A stretch of 64,000 nucleotides of DNA from Chloroflexota bacterium. Its GTDB lineage: Bacteria; Chloroflexota; UBA11872. The stretch spans positions 302,013-366,012 of the forward strand of contig CBDAOU010000001.1 in NCBI GenBank assembly GCA_965198185.1, given 5' to 3'. Numbering within the stretch: the stretch's first letter is position 1; the number at the start of each line of letters is the position of its first letter. Shown here one piece after another: positions 7,273 through 36,518 of the stretch. A program made the position numbers and the translations under genes. The notes beneath the pieces are model-generated. The model was not told the origin of the DNA. It made no database searches and worked only from the letters and a program-made list of their open reading frames with translations.

Positions 7273-8550
7273 TTGGGGGCCTCCTTGAACAGCTTGCGTA
7301 GGTATCGGCTGTTCCTCACGCTGCTTGTTGGACCGGCGCTTGTCATCGCCATCATTGTGGTCCTGATCATCACCTTGTTTGGGGGCGATGGCGAGACGGG
7401 GACCCCCGATGACCCCGCCGCGCCAACCGCCACCGCTTCGCCAGGACCAGGCGGCACGCCGCCGCCCGTAGGGACCCCCACGCCGACGATTCAGGTGCTG
7501 GCAACCCAGACACCGGTCATCGTGGACACGCCGACCCCGACGGCACCGGCCGAACCCGCCGCAACGCCGACGCCAGCCGCGACGCCGACCCCCACCGGAC
7601 CCATCGAGCACACGGTCCAGCCAGATGAAACGCTGTCAGGTATCGCGGATACCTATGGTGTGCCCGTGGATGACATCGTCAGGTTCAACAACCTGTCGGA
7701 CGCCGAAACGATCTTCGTGGGACAGATCATCTTGATCCCGACGGATCCGAGCCAGCTCGAAGCAGTGCTTGAGTCGCGCCCCGTGACGACGACGGGGGTG
7801 GTGATTCCCAGCGATGGGCTCAACGTGCGCAACGAGCCCAACACCACCACCAGTACGGTGCAGTACGTCGCGCGCGCCGGGTCGCAACTCAACCTGTCGG
7901 GCGTCTTCCAGGATATCGACGGCATTCGGTGGCACGAGGTCGAGGACGGCAACTGGGTGCAGAGCCAGTATCTGGAGCTGGGCGCCGCGGCTGCCCCGGC
8001 CCCGGACACCGCGCCAGCTACGGGTGCGGCGCCGGCCACGGGCGCGGCGCAGACGGCGGTGGTGATTCCGAGCGATGGACTGAACGTGCGCGACGAGCCC
8101 AACACCGCCACCAGCACGGTGCAGTACGTCGCGGGCGGCGGAACCCAGATCAACCTCACGGGCGTGGTTCAGGAGATCAGCGGCATCCGTTGGCATGAGG
8201 TCGACGACGGCAACTGGGTGCAGGGCCAGTACCTTGAGCTGGGCGGAACGGCTGCTCCCGCCCCGGCCGCCACAGCGGCACCGGCGCAGACTGCCGCTCC
8301 GGCGGCAACTGCCGCAGCAACCGCGGCTGCCACCGAAGCGCCGAGCGACGACGAGCTCACGGCAGTGGTGGTGCCGGAAGGCGGGCTCAACGTGCGCACG
8401 GAACCGCGTGCCGACGGCGAAGTGGCGTATGTCGCGCCCGCAGGATCGCGGCTGCAGATGACCGGCGAGAACACCGTGGTCGACGGCGTGACCTGGTGGG
8501 AGCTTGAGGACGGGAACTGGGTCCAAGGCCAGTTCCTACGGTTCGGCTAG
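7273..8550 (+). CDS. secreted/membrane-anchored LysM domain protein with three SH3b-like repeats
   Basis: N-terminal TM helix, Pro/Thr-rich linker, LysM (TVQPDETLSGIADTYGVPVDDIVRFNNL), then three ~62-aa repeats each ending ...IRWHEVEDGNWVQ.QYLELG. Confidence 0.8.
   Translation: MGASLNSLRRYRLFLTLLVGPALVIAIIVVLIITLFGGDGETGTPDDPAAPTATASPGPGGTPPPVGTPTPTIQVLATQTPVIVDTPTPTAPAEPAATPTPAATPTPTGPIEHTVQPDETLSGIADTYGVPVDDIVRFNNLSDAETIFVGQIILIPTDPSQLEAVLESRPVTTTGVVIPSDGLNVRNEPNTTTSTVQYVARAGSQLNLSGVFQDIDGIRWHEVEDGNWVQSQYLELGAAAAPAPDTAPATGAAPATGAAQTAVVIPSDGLNVRDEPNTATSTVQYVAGGGTQINLTGVVQEISGIRWHEVDDGNWVQGQYLELGGTAAPAPAATAAPAQTAAPAATAAATAAATEAPSDDELTAVVVPEGGLNVRTEPRADGEVAYVAPAGSRLQMTGENTVVDGVTWWELEDGNWVQGQFLRFG
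7798..8547 (+). repeat. three in-frame ~186-nt tandem-dispersed repeats encoding the SH3b-like modules (7798-7983, 8059-8244, 8366-8547)
   Basis: Repeats 1 and 2 are roughly 85% identical at DNA level by eye. Repeat 3 is more diverged. Confidence 0.8.
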
Positions 8551-27943: not shown

Positions 27944-28933
27944 ATGGATCCAATGAACGGCTCGGGGCACCACAGGCAGTCGTCGTCGCGACGTTCGCGA
28001 CGCCGGGTGCTCCAGGGAGGCGGCCTGGCCCTCGCGGCCGGAGTGGCACAGGCATGCGATGCCTGGTCGGTGGTGGGCAAGGCCGACGACCGCTACCCAG
28101 GGGGATCGCCCTTCGCCATCGAGGCGCTGCGCGCACGGGACTACCGGGCGGGCGACATCCGGCTGCACCGCACGCTCAACCAGCGCCCCAGCTATACGAC
28201 CTACGCCATCACGTACCGCTCGGACGACTTGCTGCTCACGGGGGTGGCGACGATTCCGAAATCGGCCGGACCGCACCCTGTCGTCGTGCTGAACCACGGA
28301 TTCATGCTGCCGGTGCAGTACGACAGCGGCGACGGCACCCGGGCCATGGCCGCCGAGCTGTCGCCGCGTGGCTTCATCACGCTCGCCAGCGACTATCGAG
28401 GACATGGCGGGTCCGAGGACGACACGCGGCTGAATTCGGGCGCGCGGCTCGAGTTCGCCATCGACGTGCTCAATCTCGTCGCCTCGATTCCCTCGCTACC
28501 CGACGCCCAACACGAGCGCGTGGGCATGTGGGGCCATAGCCTGGGATGCGACCTGGCCCTGCGTGCCGCGGAGGTCGACGCGCGGGTACAGCCGGTGGGG
28601 ATGTGGGCGCCGTTGAGCGCGTGGGCGGAGGACCTGGTGGACTACTACCGGCTCCCGACGCTGTCGTCGTCAAAGGACCTGCGCCACGCGCTATCGCCGG
28701 GGAACTTTCTGAACTATCTCGTCGGACCGGTGACGATCCATCAGGGCGCGGCCGATCTTGCCGTCAAGCCTCGGTGGGCGGCACGGCTGCACGAGGCGCT
28801 GAACGAGGCGGGGGTGGAGAGCGAGTTGACGATTCATCCCGGCGTGGGGCACTACCTGACCCTGAACGCTCGGCGGGCGGTGACCGCAACGGCGGACTTC
28901 TTCGAGCGCGAACTCCTGCACGACGCCAGGTGA
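27944..28933 (+). CDS. Tat-secreted alpha/beta hydrolase (prolyl oligopeptidase/S9-like)
   Basis: Twin-arginine signal SRRSRRRVLQGGGLALAAGVAQA. GHSLG nucleophile elbow. Confidence 0.65.
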   Translation: MDPMNGSGHHRQSSSRRSRRRVLQGGGLALAAGVAQACDAWSVVGKADDRYPGGSPFAIEALRARDYRAGDIRLHRTLNQRPSYTTYAITYRSDDLLLTGVATIPKSAGPHPVVVLNHGFMLPVQYDSGDGTRAMAAELSPRGFITLASDYRGHGGSEDDTRLNSGARLEFAIDVLNLVASIPSLPDAQHERVGMWGHSLGCDLALRAAEVDARVQPVGMWAPLSAWAEDLVDYYRLPTLSSSKDLRHALSPGNFLNYLVGPVTIHQGAADLAVKPRWAARLHEALNEAGVESELTIHPGVGHYLTLNARRAVTATADFFERELLHDAR

Positions 28934-29469
28934 CGACGCACCACGGCGACCATGGCGAAACGAGCCTGTTCGATGGCGCCCGCGTGGAGAAGGTCGACGC
29001 GCGGATCGAGGCGCTGGGCGCGGTGGACGAGCTCAACTCGTGGCTGGGCTTTGCCGCGGCGCAGCCCGACGTCGCCGGCGTGGGCGACCGGCTGCGCTGG
29101 GTCCAGGAGCGGCTGCTCGAGGTCGGCGCGGACCTGGCCAATCCCGGCGGCCGCGCCCGCAGCACCTCGCTGGCGCCGGGGTCGCTACAGACGCTGGATG
29201 CCTGGCTGGCCGAATACCGCGACGCGCTCCCACCACTGCGGCACTTCATCCTGCCCGGCGGGCACCCGCTCGCCGCCGCGCTGCAAGTTGCTCGCTCGGT
29301 GTGCCGCCGCGCCGAACGCGGCGTATGGCGCGTGGTGACGGATCCCGCGCCGGAAGGCTCGCCGGTGTTTCTCAACCGGCTGTCCGACGTGCTCTTCGAG
29401 ATGGCCCGCGCGGCCAACGCCGCCGCCGGCACCGAGGATCCCCAGTGGCGCGGGCGGGGCGATGTCTAG
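28930..29469 (+). CDS. ATP:cob(I)alamin adenosyltransferase, PduO type
   Basis: GTG overlaps the upstream stop (GTGA). TTHHGDHGETSLFDG at the N-terminus; GGHPLAAALQVARSVCRRAER... C-terminus. Confidence 0.75.
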   Translation: MTTHHGDHGETSLFDGARVEKVDARIEALGAVDELNSWLGFAAAQPDVAGVGDRLRWVQERLLEVGADLANPGGRARSTSLAPGSLQTLDAWLAEYRDALPPLRHFILPGGHPLAAALQVARSVCRRAERGVWRVVTDPAPEGSPVFLNRLSDVLFEMARAANAAAGTEDPQWRGRGDV

Positions 29470-29729
29470 CTTGTCTGCACTAACGTAGGCGCCCGTCTAC
29501 ACCTTCAGGCTTTCCGGTATTCGCCATCAGTCGCTCGCGGAGCCGGCGCGAGCTTCGCGCCGCATCTCCCAGCCGGTAGCAGCATTGGGTGATCGACTTG
29601 ACGATCCGCTGCCATCGTCCTGCGCGAGCGGGCTGCTCGTGATGCCCTCCGACTACAGCTTTGTCGGCGGGCCGAAGGTCAACCGTTGTATGATCTCGGG
29701 TTATATGCGGAGGACGCGAGGCTAGACCA

Positions 29730-30251
29730 GTGATTACGCAGCTATTTGGCGGACGGATTCCACCTCTGCTTCGCAATATCTTCAGCTTTCCGAATCCGGT
29801 CAACGAAGTGGCTGCAAGGATCGTAGCTGGAATGGTAGTCATCCTATCCATTATTGTATTAGTAACCGGTCAGTGGTGGTTGATGTTTCTCCTTGCGTAT
29901 GGCTTTCTGGCCAGAGTAGCCACCGGGCCTACGCTAAGCCCGATGGGCCTGCTGGCGACCAGGGTGATCGCGCCGCGAATTGCTCAACAGCGGCTCGTCC
30001 CGGGGCCGCCGAAGCGCTTTGCTCAAGCGGTGGGGCTTATTTTCTCGATGACCGCACTGGTGTTGCACTTCGTCGCAGGATTGTCGGTGGCAGCTGGCGC
30101 CGTCTTGGCGGTGCTGACCGTATTTGCCGCGCTTGAGTCATTTCTGGGTTTCTGCGCCGGATGCTTTGTGTTCAACTACATGATTCGCTGGGGGTTGGTG
30201 CCGAAGTCGGTCTGCGAGGAATGCCTAAACTTTGACTCGACACGGACATAG
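29730..30251 (+). CDS. DUF4395 family membrane protein (lower-GC insert)
   Basis: 173 aa with four TM helices and C-terminal C..C.....C motifs (FCAGCFVFNYMIRWGLVPKSVCEEC). Local GC is visibly lower than the flanks. Confidence 0.55.
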   Translation: MITQLFGGRIPPLLRNIFSFPNPVNEVAARIVAGMVVILSIIVLVTGQWWLMFLLAYGFLARVATGPTLSPMGLLATRVIAPRIAQQRLVPGPPKRFAQAVGLIFSMTALVLHFVAGLSVAAGAVLAVLTVFAALESFLGFCAGCFVFNYMIRWGLVPKSVCEECLNFDSTRT

Positions 30252-30357
30252 GCAGCTCTTTGACCACCGTCGCAAGCGTTCCGCATCACACGAACATTGG
30301 CGGGGCGCATGGCGGTTCGACAGCCTGAGTCAGTCCGCGATTCCCGCGATGCAGACC

Positions 30358-30540
30358 GCCCGTTCCATCTGCCGCCGCGCCGAACGCGACGTGTGGCGCG
30401 TGGTGACGGAGCCGGTGCAGGAAGCCTCGCCGGGGTTCCCTAACCGGCTGCCGGACGTGCTCTTCGAGATGGCCCGCGCAACCAACGCCGCCGCCGGCAC
30501 CGAGGATCCGCAGTGGCGCGGGCGGGCGGAGAGCCCGTAA
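30358..30540 (+). pseudogene. 3' fragment of a second PduO-type adenosyltransferase gene (diverged direct repeat of 29293-29469)
   Basis: ARSICRRAERDVWRVVTEPVQEASPGFPNRLPDVLFEMARATNAAAGTEDPQWRGR versus ARSVCRRAERGVWRVVTDPAPEGSPVFLNRLSDVLFEMARAANAAAGTEDPQWRGR in the intact gene. Roughly 89% nucleotide identity over ~150 bp. Confidence 0.75.
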
Positions 30541-30690
30541 GCCGGACGACCATGGCATTGCGAGGGCGGAATGCTCTTGTGAGTGGTAGATGGGAGTCCC
30601 TGAATATGCCCGCCGCGCCAACCTGATAGACGGCTAGGCGGCGCGGGCGCCGTGCATGGATTGTGCATGGATGGGGTCGCAAAGCGTGGC

Positions 30691-31212
30691 TTAGCTGCCG
30701 TCTTGCTGTTCCAACTCCGCGCACGCGATGTACCACGCGTGGCGTGTTTCAAAGAGGTCGAAGATGGCCTCACCCTCGCTGTCCCACCTCGTGGTGTTGA
30801 GGGCGGTTTGCAGCGCCCAAAGGATTCGGCGTCCCGTGACTCCCGCTGCCTGCTGCGCACGCTCGGTCCAGCAGTCGCCCGGACGCCAGTTGTCCGGGAT
30901 TTCCTTTTCGGGGATCAGTCCCAAGCGCTCGCACCGGTCGCAGGATTCGCGTTCAGGGGCCAGAGAATTGCCCAGCAGCACGCCGGTGCGCAGGCTGGCG
31001 AGGGTCCGACACGCGAGGCACATGCGCTCGTCGCTCTCAGCCACCGAACCGTGTCGGTCCCAGCCGACATCAGCAATATCGCCGCAGTCAGGCTTGCCGC
31101 AGAACGTGCACAGCATCGGCGGCGGCGCAAAGTCCTGCGAAGGCCATTGGTCCCGCTGCGAATAGACGCAGGACGGTTGACCACACTGCGGGCAGAGGTC
31201 TCTTGACTTCAC
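30691..31212 (-). CDS. Cys-rich hypothetical protein with two predicted zinc ribbons
   Basis: 173 aa. CPQCGQPSC...CTFCGKPDC...CLAC...CDRCERLG, then a helical C-terminal half. Starts 2 nt after the stop of the T5orf172 gene. No family recognised. Confidence 0.55.
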   Translation of the reverse strand: MKSRDLCPQCGQPSCVYSQRDQWPSQDFAPPPMLCTFCGKPDCGDIADVGWDRHGSVAESDERMCLACRTLASLRTGVLLGNSLAPERESCDRCERLGLIPEKEIPDNWRPGDCWTERAQQAAGVTGRRILWALQTALNTTRWDSEGEAIFDLFETRHAWYIACAELEQQDGS

Positions 31213-31214
31213 CG

Positions 31215-31781
31215 TTAACTTCCCCCGCCTTCGCCCACAGCGCCAACGTCTATCTGGCTCGCCACGTCAGTCGCGGGAGGCGCGGTGCTTTCAACGGGAC
31301 GGAGGGACTCTTGAAAGCGCCAAACAGGCTCGTCTACGCCTGGCATTTGGATCACAGCCATGTAGGGAGTGAGCCTTTCGATGACACCCTCACCGCCGTC
31401 GAAGGTGACAGACTGGCCGACAGCCAAGTCGACGCCCGGCGGTTCATCGTCGCGCTGCGGCGTGACGTCCTCTCCGTCTAGCAGTTCCAGAATTGCCGCA
31501 ACTTGCTCCACCGCCACCTCAAAGAACTCGCGCCATGCGTGGACGCGCGCTGGCTCGAACGCCTGATGGAGTGCGGCTTCGACGGCTTGATAGTTGTCGA
31601 CTAAGCGGGCGATTTCGCACCTAAAGGGAGTCGGGACGCCCGAGGACCATAGGCCCTTGAGTCGCTTGTCGAGGTTTCCGTCGCTTGTGCACCCGATCTT
31701 GACCACATCCGGCATCGCCGGGTTCGTCAGCACGTAGACGATGCCGCGGTCATCATTGGACGTGGTGTCCTCAGTCGCCAC
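31215..31781 (-). CDS. T5orf172 (GIY-YIG superfamily) domain protein
   Basis: GIVYVLTNPAMPDVVKIGCTSDGNLDKRLKGLWSSGVPTPFRCEIA...REFFEV is a close match to the T5orf172/MUG113 domain. Acidic C-terminal extension of unknown function. Confidence 0.7.
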   Translation of the reverse strand: MATEDTTSNDDRGIVYVLTNPAMPDVVKIGCTSDGNLDKRLKGLWSSGVPTPFRCEIARLVDNYQAVEAALHQAFEPARVHAWREFFEVAVEQVAAILELLDGEDVTPQRDDEPPGVDLAVGQSVTFDGGEGVIERLTPYMAVIQMPGVDEPVWRFQESLRPVESTAPPATDVASQIDVGAVGEGGGS

Positions 31782-31840
31782 TAACGCGACTCCATCATGG
31801 TCCGGCAGCGGACGGCGAGCGTATCAGACAGATTCGCGGC

Positions 31841-32150
31841 CTACGCCGCCCCCGGCAGCCGCCGCCGCAGGGCGTAGCCGAAGTCAACGTAGCACCCGCC
31901 ACTGTGTCCGCCCGGCGTGAACAGGATCAGATTTGTAGCCTCGCGGATGTCCGCCAAGTCGATCTGGGCGCAGCGGCGTCGCTCAAGCGTCGTCAGCGCC
32001 TCGATTGGCTTGCGAAGGTCCGCGTTCGCCACCGGGTTATGCCAGCGGTTCACGACGGGGAATCCCAGGTCGCGCAGCTGCTAGGCGTAGCCTTCAATCT
32101 CAGCGTGCCGCTCGAACCGCGCCGCGAGGTAGATGCCGTGAATGGGGTTC
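31841..32150 (-). pseudogene. nucleoside 2-deoxyribosyltransferase-like gene interrupted by an in-frame TAG (32071-32073)
   Basis: My translation: ...ENPIHGIYLAARFERHAEIEGYA*QLRDLGFPVVNRWHNPVANADL...ILFTPGGHSGGCYVDFGYALRRRLP. IYLAg...G.P and G..SGG.yvdfGYA resemble the NDT/DUF4406 family. Only the part after the stop is in the ORF track (GTG 32053). Confidence 0.45.
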
Positions 32151-32294
32151 TCGGTCACGGGTGGCCCGCCTCTCCCTGTGCATGGGTCTGCTCATAGATA
32201 GAGGTGCACGGGCGCACACGGAGAGCAACCGGCGACCGCTCGCGGGGCACGATTACAGAAGGGAGAGGCCCCTTCGCGCACGGAGAGAAGCGTG

Positions 32295-32371
32295 TGGTAG
32301 GGCATGCGGGATTCGAACCCGCGATCTCCGCCTTGAGAGGGCGGTGTCCTGGGCCGCTAGACGAATGCCCC
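32295..32371 (-). tRNA. tRNA-Glu (anticodon CUC)
   Basis: Minus strand reads GGGGCATTCGTCTAGCGGCCCAGGACACCGCCCTCTCAAGGCGGAGATCGCGGGTTCGAATCCCGCATGCCCTACCA. 7-bp acceptor stem, D-arm TCTAGCGG, anticodon stem CCGCC/GGCGG with loop CTCTCAA, T-arm GGGTTCGAATCCC, encoded CCA. Confidence 0.85.
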
Positions 32372-35609: not shown

Positions 35610-35764
35610 TTGCGTTGGCCGGTCGTCATTCGAATCCCCAGTGAGTTTACGCCGACTCTACTTGGGCGCGAGCGTAGAATGCGGATCAACCGGCGACGGC
35701 CTCACGATACATTCTCGATTGTCAATCGCGGCCCTGGTCGCAAGACACTGCAGACAAGAGAAAC

Positions 35765-36343
35765 TCAAGACTCTCTAGCAAAGACACCAAGAAAGCTAAT
35801 CCAGCCCAAGATACCGATCAATACAATAGTAAATTCACCTCTGCCCAACGGCGCTATCGCCGACCTCGGAGACGACTGCCAATAGCGATTCAAATCCTTC
35901 TGTATATACGACAAGATGCAAGCCGTAGCCAGTACATCGGTAAGAAATGCCACCTGAGAAATCGCAGCTATCTCAAAAACTTGGGAGTCCATCCCGATTT
36001 CCCAAGGGTATAGCAGCCTCATGGCGGGAAACATAAATCCAAATAGATATACAAAGCCAAATGCAATCACAGCTAGCACAGGCTTGATGGATGTGTCCAA
36101 GCCTCGTGCTACCATCAGATCCTTGTATGCCCGCACGTGATTGTGAACTTGAAACAGGCCATAAAACGGCACTAGAAACGACAGAGCATGCAAGAGTGGA
36201 TATGCCGTTCTTCCAGTATGATCCCTATAGTGCTTCCAGGTACGGAATGCCCAATACAGAAGGTATAGACCTCCTGATATCAATGAGACAATAACTACAC
36301 CTCTCACTGGTATTACGTATTGGTTTGAGTACACTCTCGGCAA
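35765..36343 (-). CDS. hypothetical membrane protein encoded in an AT-rich segment
   Basis: 192 aa with five hydrophobic helices. The local sequence is conspicuously AT-richer than the surrounding genome. Confidence 0.5.
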   Translation of the reverse strand: MPRVYSNQYVIPVRGVVIVSLISGGLYLLYWAFRTWKHYRDHTGRTAYPLLHALSFLVPFYGLFQVHNHVRAYKDLMVARGLDTSIKPVLAVIAFGFVYLFGFMFPAMRLLYPWEIGMDSQVFEIAAISQVAFLTDVLATACILSYIQKDLNRYWQSSPRSAIAPLGRGEFTIVLIGILGWISFLGVFARES

Positions 36344-36518
36344 ATTTTGTAACTAATGTCAATCCCCGACGCTAAGGGCGTAGCCCTAACTTTAACAGAA
36401 GGCTCCTTAAACATCGGTCCACATTGGCCCGTCAACGCCACCGCCCGATACAGCTCCAGCGCCACTGGTTCCCACTGGCGCGACTTGGCGCTGTAGTCTA
36501 CCGCAGCAATAGCTTCGC

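What the first reader, a model, noticed from the sequence alone, without database searches (positions are those of the whole stretch)
30691..31781. Tightly coupled T5orf172 (GIY-YIG-like) + double-zinc-ribbon gene pair in a tRNA-Glu-adjacent remnant island
The two minus-strand genes are separated by 2 nt. The upstream one is a clear T5orf172/MUG113-domain protein (GIVYVLTNPAMPDVVKIGCTSDGNLDKRLKGL...VPTPF) with an acidic C-terminal extension. The downstream one is a 173-aa protein with four CxxC pairs (two predicted zinc ribbons) and no family I can assign. They sit between a decayed phage-type NDT-like gene next to tRNA-Glu and a diverged duplicate gene end. That context is typical of integrated mobile or defence cargo. 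T5orf172 domains are nuclease-superfamily modules common in phage and defence islands, but to my knowledge this pairing is not a described system. This is my best candidate for something new in the window.
Basis: partly seen in the sequence, partly recalled or inferred. Interest (0 to 1): 0.7.

Follow-up and report, generated by a model that had tools for sequence, protein, structure and literature searches.

The report
T5orf172 gene beside orphan zinc protein
A 1.7-kb leftover insertion next to a tRNA gene in a Chloroflexota genome carries a candidate anti-phage nuclease gene and, right behind it, a rare cysteine-rich gene; the two sit together only here, so this looks like a chance neighbourhood, not a new two-gene defence system.

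Summary
Two minus-strand ORFs lie at 31215-31781 (A, 188 aa) and 30691-31212 (B, 173 aa), 2 nt apart.

- **A** is a T5orf172/GIY-YIG-type protein. Its N-terminal domain matches PADLOC's untested single-gene candidate PDC-S57 (E 1.7e-40). It lacks that family's C-terminal half.
- **B** is a real gene. It has four CxxC pairs and a helical bundle, and matches no known family or fold.
- **Context.** Both genes lie in a ~1.7-kb insertion with no integrase, exactly at the 3' end of tRNA-Glu(CTC). Four sister Chloroflexota MAGs have this site empty. One holds TIR-like and HEC-09 defence candidates there.
- **The pairing is not conserved.** B's only relatives fall into two other locus types in similar high-GC contigs. 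They are 146-148 aa, always alone, and never next to a T5orf172 gene. Relatives of A sit alone among housekeeping genes, or in variable regions without a B-like gene.
- **The 2-nt gap depends on a local extension.** It requires a 32-aa N-terminal extension of B (a fourth zinc knuckle) found only at this locus.

A is a variant of a known candidate kind, B is a small lineage-restricted orphan family, and a locally evolved A+B module is not excluded (about 12%).

The parts
32295..32371 (-). tRNA-Glu(CTC). Its 3' end is the insertion point.
   Evidence: ARAGORN. Rfam tRNA 64 bits. Homology to empty-site relatives resumes at 32292-32296.
30590..32293 (.). Inserted segment of about 1.7 kb with no integrase. 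It is flanked by a 7-nt direct repeat GTGGTAG (30583-30589 and 32294-32300) and is absent from sister genomes L007, L009, L010 and L014.
   Evidence: blastn and alignment against empty sites. Synteny from tblastn and tRNA scans. Third-position GC of A (0.71) and B (0.76) is below that of the neighbouring genes plsX, hydrolase, ffh and the two D-glutamate cyclase-type genes (0.83-0.92).
31841..32158 (-). Fragment of a nucleoside 2-deoxyribosyltransferase-like gene, interrupted by an in-frame TAG (32081-32083). Probably a pseudogene.
   Evidence: The sequence reads through one stop. PHROG 355 gives E 1.7e-4 over profile positions 99-168 of 249. No Pfam hit.
31215..31781 (-). Gene A, 188 aa. It has an N-terminal T5orf172 (GIY-YIG superfamily) domain at residues ~10-112 and a short acidic C-terminal region (113-188) that replaces the usual C-terminal domain of the PDC-S57 family.
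   Evidence: Pfam PF10544 E 9.1e-16. PADLOC PDLC05041 PDC-S57 E 1.7e-40, profile positions 3-104 of 212 only. hhalign to canonical relatives covers only residues 6-114. All 20 invariant N-domain columns of alignment A4 are kept. The C-terminal motif is shared with P0003.
30691..31212 (-). Gene B, 173 aa. It is a Cys-rich protein with Zn-knuckle pairs C7/C10, C35/C38, C65/C68 and C91/C94, plus C114 (His in P0030) and invariant C164, followed by a helical bundle at residues ~111-172. It belongs to a very small family seen only in high-GC metagenome contigs. The family-conserved start corresponds to ATG 31116 (Met33).
31117..31212 (-). Locus-specific 32-codon N-terminal extension of B. It carries an extra CxxCGxPxC...W knuckle and brings B's start to 2 nt after A's stop.
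   Evidence: Absent from all homologues, which have stops 1-10 codons upstream of their starts. The motif repeat is reached by 1 of 5000 shuffles, with no DNA-level similarity. The start is GTG here and TTG in L001.
30232..30540 (+). Context: a diverged duplicate of the 3' end of the PduO-type cobalamin adenosyltransferase gene. It is ancestral flank, not part of the insert.
   Evidence: Pfam Cob_adeno_trans 120-170 of 171, E 4.9e-9. Also present in L001, L007 and L008.

Best explanation
The region is the remnant of a small insertion at the 3' end of tRNA-Glu(CTC). In this Chloroflexota lineage that site is a hotspot for variable and defence-type cargo. The insert holds three unrelated pieces.

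1. **A broken NDT-like gene.**
2. **Gene A.** This is a short-form member of the T5orf172/GIY-YIG nuclease-like group that PADLOC lists as the untested single-gene defence candidate PDC-S57. Its N-terminal domain keeps every invariant residue of its canonical relatives. Residues aligned to GIY-YIG catalytic positions are Y16, R40 and E85; K28 stands in the second-Tyr position. I infer that A is, or recently was, a stand-alone nuclease-type effector or selfish endonuclease. Its usual C-terminal, presumably target-binding, domain has been replaced by a ~45-residue motif plus an acidic tail.
3. **Gene B.** This is a copy of a tiny family seen only in high-GC metagenome contigs. Family members are ~146-aa acidic proteins with one zinc ribbon (C35/38 + C65/68). 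They probably have a second metal site (C91/94 + C/H114 + C164), clamped to a helical bundle. Elsewhere this family is a stand-alone chromosomal gene.

At this locus B gained a fourth knuckle at its N-terminus and now starts 2 nt after A. The two genes are therefore probably co-transcribed and translationally coupled here. This is a local juxtaposition, not a conserved system.

**Shown:** gene reality, domain assignments, insertion boundaries, and lack of conserved pairing.
**Inferred:** nuclease activity of A, metal binding by B, co-expression.
For: - **Insertion and hotspot.** Core synteny is plsX-hydrolase-PduO-DUF4395-tRNA-Glu-ffh in 9 sister MAGs. The DUF4395-to-tRNA interval is ~300 nt in L007, L009, L010 and L014. 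It is filled with different genes in L008 and L013. The L008 cargo is a TIR-like effector (PADLOC E 7e-10) and an HEC-09 NYN protein (E 4.8e-40). The junction lies exactly at the tRNA 3' end, with a 7-nt repeat.
- **A.**: canonical P0005 and P0013 match PDC-S57 over positions 3-208 of 212, whereas A and P0003 match only 3-104.
- **Canonical relatives are solitary**, sitting next to purM/N/F, hisS or sulfatase genes.
- **B family.** The exhaustive HMMER search of 1.84 billion representatives gave 2 hits. The profile search of 5.8 billion proteins gave 5. There were none in the GTDB, JGI or IMG/VR pattern scans.
- **B contexts lack T5orf172**. B stays next to gltX whether the adjacent variable stretch is empty (L005) or filled (L015, L019-21). 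There it therefore behaves as flank, not cargo.
- **T5orf172 as a GIY-YIG nuclease subfamily:** PMC8263062 and PMC10448857.
- **PDC systems are untested candidates:** bioRxiv 10.1101/2024.01.29.577857.
Against: - The 2-nt spacing, the Shine-Dalgarno-like GGGGGA inside A's 3' end, and the locus-specific extension of B that exactly closes the gap are what one would expect if B had been recruited as a partner of A.
- A lacks the family's C-terminal domain, so it might need a partner.
- There are only two nearly identical examples of the locus (the window and L001), so absence of conservation cannot be separated from recency.
- No biochemical evidence exists for any member of either family.
Confidence: 0.6

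Rival explanations
1. A and B form a genuine, locally evolved two-gene module. A supplies a GIY-YIG-type nuclease domain that has lost its own C-terminal recognition or regulatory domain. B is a zinc-knuckle protein recruited from a chromosomal family and fitted with an extra knuckle and translational coupling. It would act in trans as the specificity or regulatory subunit, or as an antitoxin-like inhibitor. This would be a split version of phage T5orf172 endonucleases that carry Zn-finger DNA-binding domains.
For: - The 2-nt gap and SD-like site.
- The N-terminal extension with a repeated CxxCGxPxC...W motif occurs only at this locus, and its protein-level similarity is non-random.
- A and its nearest relative P0003 lack the C-terminal half of PDC-S57.
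- Phage T5orf172 homing endonucleases are usually fused to repeated Zn-finger DNA-binding domains (PMC10448857).
- In L002 an uncalled HNH ORF overlaps the 3' end of the P0003 gene.
Against: - No other B-family locus has a T5orf172 neighbour, and no other relative of A has a B-like neighbour.
- B does not match CapR, DUF723, DUF4397 or any other Zn-finger DNA-binding family.
- B is acidic (pI 4.7), which is unusual for a DNA binder.
- The HNH ORF of L002 is not conserved in L003 or L004.
Confidence: 0.13
2. The insert is decaying junk. Both genes are relics under relaxed selection with no current function, and the tight spacing is an accident of where the first start codon falls in an open frame of GC-rich DNA.
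For: - The adjacent NDT-like gene is already a pseudogene, and the insert has no integrase.
- Between the window and L001, A has 5 non-synonymous and 2 synonymous changes (pN/pS 0.81). These include changes at the conserved G13 and at A58, which aligns with invariant column A54 of A4. The flanking genes plsX, hydrolase and ffh give pN/pS 0.03-0.15.
- The relative P0004 is truncated by a stop in L003 and L004.
Against: - Both ORFs are intact in both strains.
- A keeps all 20 invariant N-domain residues in the window.
- B gives pN/pS 0.30, from only 6 changes.
- L001 is a 2x-coverage contig, so some of its differences may be errors.
- The motif conservation in B's extension argues for translation.
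Confidence: 0.2
3. B starts at Met33 (ATG 31116), as in all its relatives. There would then be a 98-nt spacer and no translational coupling, and the two genes are simply neighbours. This is compatible with the best explanation and concerns only the coupling.
For: - All homologues begin 2-4 residues before CTFCG, with upstream stops.
- The gene caller chose this start in L001.
- The first codon is TTG in L001.
Against: - There is no SD-like sequence before ATG 31116 (GCGCCGCCGCCG), whereas GGGGGA lies 8 nt before GTG 31212.
- The extension encodes a second LCxxCGxPxC...W motif at the same spacing.
Confidence: 0.3

Closest known systems
PADLOC PDC-S57 (single-gene 'phage defence candidate', T5orf172 protein of ~212 aa)
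   Same: The N-terminal T5orf172 domain of A matches model PDLC05041 at E 1.7e-40. A shares 50-56% identity with canonical members over that domain. The gene sits in variable DNA at a site that holds defence candidates in a sister genome.
   Different: A aligns only to profile positions 3-104 of 212. The conserved C-terminal domain is replaced by an unrelated ~45-aa motif plus an acidic tail. In canonical members that domain carries invariant Trp194 and nearly invariant Arg131, Gly144 and Leu147 (P0005 numbering). PDC-S57 is itself untested, and canonical members are solitary genes.
Phage T5orf172 homing endonucleases and the ICP1 anti-satellite nuclease Odn (Gp88)
   Same: They share the same GIY-YIG-subfamily nuclease domain. 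In those proteins the domain works together with Zn-finger or other DNA-binding modules, which is a possible functional analogy for A plus the zinc-knuckle protein B.
   Different: There the DNA-binding module is fused in the same polypeptide (CapR, DUF723, DUF4397, RepA_N). B matches none of these, is acidic, is encoded separately, and occurs alone elsewhere. There is no phage context here.
PD-Lambda-1 (defence protein with a C-terminal T5orf172 domain)
   Same: A weaker PADLOC match to its T5orf172 domain (E 1.1e-9, profile positions 353-454 of 496).
   Different: PD-Lambda-1 is a ~490-aa protein with a large N-terminal region that A lacks. Only the domain is shared.
tRNA-linked integration hotspots / defence islets
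   Same: The insertion is exactly at the tRNA 3' end, with a short direct repeat. The site is empty in relatives. A sister genome has different cargo there, including TIR-like and HEC-09 candidates.
   Different: There is no integrase or other mobility gene. The insert is only ~1.7 kb, and the repeat is only 7 nt.

Membership tests
T5orf172 / MUG113 (Pfam PF10544 / PF13455, GIY-YIG clan) | Domain match above Pfam's gathering score | tested here: met
   PF10544 58.7 bits (cutoff 20), residues 13-100 against profile 1-99 of 101. PF13455 46.4 bits (cutoff 22.3).
T5orf172 / MUG113 (Pfam PF10544 / PF13455, GIY-YIG clan) | Conserved core residues (GIY-type Tyr, Arg, catalytic Glu) | tested here: met
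   All 20 invariant N-domain columns of the 17-sequence alignment A4 are kept in A. They include Y16, K28-I-G30, R40, H72, R79 and E85-F-F. The catalytic role is inferred from GIY-YIG alignments in PMC8263062 and PMC10448857.
T5orf172 / MUG113 (Pfam PF10544 / PF13455, GIY-YIG clan) | Nuclease activity | not testable with these tools
   Needs biochemistry.
PADLOC PDC-S57 | Match to the N-terminal half of the family profile | tested here: met
   PDLC05041 E 1.7e-40, 136.9 bits, profile positions 3-104.
PADLOC PDC-S57 | Match to the C-terminal half of the profile (full-length architecture) | tested here: not met
   A and P0003 stop at profile position ~104. Canonical P0005 and P0013 cover 3-208 of 212 at 244-261 bits. 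hhalign aligns only residues 6-114 of A.
PADLOC PDC-S57 | Anti-phage activity | not testable with these tools
   The family itself is an untested candidate.
Conserved two-gene system (defence or toxin-antitoxin type) | Co-occurrence of the two gene families in independent genomes | tested here: not met
   B-family loci L005 and L015-L021 lack T5orf172. Loci of A relatives L002-L004 and L022-L025 lack a B-like gene. Only the window and its near-identical counterpart L001 have the pair.
Conserved two-gene system (defence or toxin-antitoxin type) | Operon-like arrangement (same strand, short gap, internal SD) | tested here: inconclusive
   The 2-nt gap and GGGGGA site are present. The family-conserved start of B is 96 nt further downstream. 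There are no informative promoter or terminator matches.
Zinc-ribbon proteins | Two CxxC knuckles at ribbon spacing, conserved across homologues | tested here: met
   C35/C38 and C65/C68 are conserved in every full-length homologue. C91/C94, C/H114 and C164 are also conserved.
Zinc-ribbon proteins | Match to a described Zn-ribbon or Zn-finger family or fold | tested here: not met
tRNA-integrated genomic island | Presence/absence polymorphism with a junction at the tRNA 3' end | tested here: met
tRNA-integrated genomic island | Integrase and an extended att repeat | tested here: not met
   There is no integrase ORF in 30590-32293. Only a 7-nt repeat is present.

The most novel reading that the evidence does not exclude
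A short-form T5orf172 nuclease that has lost its own C-terminal domain has captured a chromosomal zinc-knuckle/helical-bundle protein as a trans-acting specificity or control subunit. The capture was achieved by adding a fourth knuckle and translational coupling. This would be a newly born split nuclease module caught at its origin. It would also give the first functional handle on an uncharacterised protein family so far seen only in a handful of high-GC metagenome contigs.
Probability: 0.12. Interest if true: 0.55.

Novelty: new variant of a known kind. Interest (0 to 1): 0.25.

Why it matters
As it stands, it matters little. The locus adds a C-terminally divergent short form to an already catalogued but untested T5orf172 defence-candidate family. 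It also documents a tRNA-Glu hotspot for variable cargo in an uncultured Chloroflexota lineage.

The most original item is gene B. It defines a very small family found only in a handful of high-GC metagenome contigs: metal-binding, helical-bundle proteins with no detectable relative in Pfam, the PDB or BFVD. Its function is unknown.

If the pair did turn out to act together, it would illustrate how a nuclease module recruits a new partner. Present evidence does not favour that.

Tried and rejected
- **Family searches of B.** Pfam, NCBIfam, PADLOC and PHROGs searches of B and its homologues gave nothing significant.
- **PDB sequence searches.** I searched with the B profile, with A, and with A's C-terminal motif. 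Nothing was found.
- **Structure of B.**
  - The single-sequence AF2 model was unusable (pLDDT 45).
  - The 6-sequence model was usable (pLDDT 75).
  - It gave only generic helical-bundle matches.
  - The afdb50 library was unavailable.
- **Pattern scans for B relatives** in GTDB genomes, JGI metagenomes and IMG/VR found none.
- **Idea that B is HNH-like**, like the ORF after P0003 in L002. Rejected: B has no His-Asn-His motif, residues 66-84 are predicted helical, and the L002 HNH ORF is not conserved in L003 or L004.
- **Idea that the window's NDT-like remnant matches the NDT/TIR-like gene at the same hotspot in L008.** BLASTP shows no similarity.
- **Idea that A's C-terminal motif is a UvrD/PcrA-type Tudor/SH3-like domain.** This was only a visual resemblance. 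No Pfam or PDB sequence support was found, and it is not claimed.
- **Search for an extended att repeat or tRNA fragment** at the far end of the insert. Only 7 nt were found.
- **Promoter/terminator scan and Rfam search** were uninformative apart from the tRNA.
- **Literature search for 'PDC-S57'** found no paper.
Full report
**What is in the sequence.**
  - A is 31215..31781 (188 aa).
  - B is 30691..31212 (173 aa).
- On the minus strand the junction reads ...GGC GGG GGA AGT TAA cg GTG AAG.... The gap is therefore 2 nt, and a GGGGGA Shine-Dalgarno-like site lies 8 nt before B's GTG.
- A also has a GGAG 8 nt before its GTG.
- In 67% GC DNA, long ORFs arise by chance in all frames (one search lists many), so gene reality had to be shown.
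- A matches Pfam T5orf172 (E 9.1e-16) and MUG113.
- B has the coding pattern GC3 0.76 > GC1 0.63 > GC2 0.53. It also has diverged homologues elsewhere (below).
- Both genes have lower GC3 (0.71 and 0.76) than plsX, the hydrolase, ffh and the two D-glutamate cyclase-type genes nearby (0.83-0.92). This fits foreign origin.

**Organism and locus history.**
- A scan of species-representative genomes with the neighbouring hydrolase returned nine Chloroflexota MAGs at 79-89% protein identity.
- tblastn and tRNA scans across them give a conserved backbone: plsX, hydrolase, PduO-type adenosyltransferase, DUF4395, tRNA-Glu(CTC), ffh, then two D-glutamate cyclase-type genes.
- In L007, L009, L010 and L014, only about 300 nt or less separate the DUF4395 flank from the tRNA. 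In the window the distance is about 2 kb.
- blastn places the right break exactly at the tRNA 3' end (32292-32296). Against L007 it places the left break at about 30551-30590.
- The junctions share a 7-nt direct repeat GTGGTAG (30583-30589 and 32294-32300), which is the end of the tRNA gene.
- The inserted ~1.7 kb contains only the NDT-like fragment, A and B. There is no integrase.
- The same site carries other cargo in two sister genomes.
  - In L008 it holds a TIR-like effector (PADLOC E 7e-10) and a full-length HEC-09 NYN protein (E 4.8e-40).
  - In L013 it holds a CobW-like GTPase and a WD40-like protein, identified by eye from the ORF translations.
- The 'duplicate gene end' (30232..30540) is a copy of the PduO C-terminus. 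It belongs to the older flank, because L007 and L008 have it too.
- The NDT-like call is weak. There is no Pfam hit, and PHROG 355 gives E 1.7e-4 when translated through the in-frame TAG.

**Gene A.**
- PADLOC's models place the N-terminal domain of A in PDC-S57 (PDLC05041, E 1.7e-40), but only over profile positions 3-104 of 212.
- Canonical relatives found in the 5.8-billion-protein search are 200-222 aa and 49-56% identical over the N-domain. They match the profile end to end at 244-261 bits.
- A profile-profile comparison aligns only residues 6-114 of A.
- All 20 invariant N-domain columns of the canonical alignment are kept in A. They include Y16, K28-I-G30, R40, H72, R79 and E85-F-F.
- T5orf172 is treated in the literature as a GIY-YIG endonuclease subfamily. 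In one case, activity depends on the aligned glutamate (PMC8263062, PMC10448857).
- Residues 113-188 of A are acidic (pI 4.05). They share a ~35-residue motif only with the nearest relative: GEGVIERLTPYMAVIQMPGVDEPVWRFQESL in A, and GHEGIIEKFTPHMAEVRYPGTGESKWHFQGTL in P0003 (152 aa, 55% identity).
- A is therefore a short-form variant, not a random truncation.
- PDC systems are 145 untested candidates derived by 'guilt by embedding' (bioRxiv 10.1101/2024.01.29.577857).
- Three canonical relatives that I inspected are solitary genes among housekeeping genes: purM/N/F, hisS with glycosidases, and sulfatases.
- P0003 and P0004 sit in a variable region with AAA_14/DUF4143 and nucleotidyltransferase genes, and have no B-like neighbour.

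**Gene B.**
- The indexed search of 5.8 billion proteins found only the near-identical copy in contig L001, which is the same locus in a closely related strain.
- An exhaustive HMMER pass over 1.84 billion representatives added a single relative.
- A profile search added three more.
- Pattern scans of GTDB genomes, JGI metagenomes and IMG/VR found none.
- Full-length homologues are 146-148 aa and 44-49% identical to B.
- They share several conserved features:
  - CTFCG.P...GWDRHG.V...ERMC..C;
  - a third Cys pair;
  - a P.DW.P motif (I-P.DW.P in most members) followed by (C/H)W;
  - a C-terminal segment AG..GR.IL..L..A..T..WD.E......WY.ACAE.
- Position 114 alternates Cys and His, as expected of a metal ligand.
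- Among the gltX-linked orthologues, uncorrected pN/pS is 0.26-0.33. This is a real protein family under purifying selection.
- With the six-sequence alignment, AlphaFold2 gives pLDDT 75 and pTM 0.68, with a confident helical bundle at 111-172.
- No Pfam family is matched, and a B-family member (P0030) has no PADLOC match.
- The protein is acidic, as are its relatives (pI 4.5-4.7).
- I infer a zinc ribbon (C35/38 + C65/68). I also infer a second site (C91/94 + C/H114 + C164) that staples the linker to the bundle. The cellular role is unknown.

**Is the pairing a system?** No other instance was found.
- One group of B-family genes is transcribed divergently from gltX.
  - It lies at the edge of a variable stretch that ends at a NUDIX gene.
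  - That stretch is empty in L005. It holds an AbiU/AIPR fragment in L015 and other ORFs in L019-21.
  - The gene stays in place whatever the cargo, so it behaves there as flank.
- A second group lies between a YqeC-family gene and an ABC-transporter operon, in three contigs.
- None of these loci has a T5orf172 gene.
- Conversely, no relative of A has a B-like neighbour.
- An HNH ORF overlaps the end of the P0003 gene in L002 (Pfam HNH E 1.1e-11), but it is absent from L003 and L004.
That is what the data show.

**What still speaks for a local functional link.**
- All B homologues start 2-4 residues before the first conserved knuckle, with stop codons 1-10 codons upstream.
- Only the window/L001 copy is open for 32 more codons.
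- These codons encode LCPQCGQPSC...W, mirroring LCTFCGKPDC...W at identical spacing.
- One of 5000 composition-preserving shuffles reaches that protein-level score, and there is no DNA-level similarity.
- This looks like an old duplication kept in frame.
- For the extra knuckle to be translated, initiation must occur at GTG 31212 (TTG in L001). That is 2 nt after A's stop and behind the SD-like site.
- A lacks its family's C-terminal domain.
- In phage T5orf172 endonucleases the nuclease domain normally works with Zn-finger DNA-binding modules (PMC10448857).
- A recently formed A+B module is therefore not excluded. I give it about 12-13%.

**What speaks for decay.**
- The neighbouring NDT-like gene is broken.
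- Between the window and L001, A has 5 non-synonymous and 2 synonymous differences (pN/pS 0.81). B gives 0.30, and plsX, the hydrolase and ffh give 0.03-0.15.
- The counts are tiny, and L001 is a 2x-coverage contig, so this is suggestive only.

**Verdict.**
- The locus is a small remnant insertion at a tRNA-Glu hotspot.
- It joins a short-form member of an already catalogued but untested T5orf172 defence-candidate family to a copy of a rare orphan zinc-protein family.
- The conserved-system reading fails the co-occurrence test.
- Interest is modest. It rests mainly on B as an uncharacterised family, and on the small chance that the pair is a newly formed module.

Noticed in passing
window 29470-32294; loci L006-L014: DUF4395 is flanked by two separate variable hotspots in this Chloroflexota lineage. 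The first lies between PduO and DUF4395. It holds 2-7 kb of different cargo in L006, L007, L008 and L010, including giant surface-type ORFs, a peptide ABC-type operon and CobW+WD40. The second lies between DUF4395 and tRNA-Glu and is filled in the window, L008 and L013.
   Followed up: partly
window 28900-30540 against L001: Identity between the window and the same-species contig L001 is mosaic: 99.1% across plsX and most of the hydrolase gene, 87-89% across PduO, about 87-89% across DUF4395 and the PduO-end duplicate, and about 98.7% across A and B. ffh has high synonymous divergence (pS 0.12 against 0.018 in plsX). This suggests recombination breakpoints around this locus.
   Followed up: partly
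L008 15323-17658: At the same tRNA-Glu site, a sister MAG carries a 362-aa protein with a TIR/NDT-like N-terminal domain (PADLOC TIR effector E 7e-10; Pfam Nuc_deoxyrib_tr E 4.4e-4, below cutoff). It also carries a 240-aa NYN protein matching PADLOC HEC-09 full length (E 4.8e-40).
   Followed up: partly
L005 1904-2344; L015 2236-2676; L019 ~7797-8234; L020; L021: One group of B homologues always lies divergent from gltX (glutamyl-tRNA synthetase), with tRNA-Gln about 4 kb away in L019 and L020. The window copy lies next to tRNA-Glu. This is probably coincidence, since the window copy is inside an insertion, but it was not tested.
   Followed up: no
L019-L021 (P0031) and L005 (P0028): Gene callers truncated B homologues to 77 and 94 aa. 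The open frames encode full-length ~146-aa proteins with non-ATG or unrecognised starts, so the family is under-represented in protein databases.
   Followed up: yes
L002 6308-6631: An uncalled HNH endonuclease ORF (Pfam HNH E 1.1e-11) overlaps the 3' end of the T5orf172 gene P0003. L002 and L003 diverge abruptly at this point, which marks a recombination junction inside the gene's 3' region.
   Followed up: partly
window 35750-36500: A sharp drop in GC to 0.47-0.49 in a 67% GC window coincides with a 192-aa, apparently multi-pass membrane ORF (35765..36343, minus strand). It has only a sub-threshold DUF4234 match. It may be another foreign insertion.
   Followed up: partly
L015 3043-3903: The variable stretch beside the gltX-linked B homologue contains an AIPR/AbiU-like fragment (PADLOC AbiU E 9.3e-15, C-terminal part only). 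That site may therefore also collect defence cargo.
   Followed up: no
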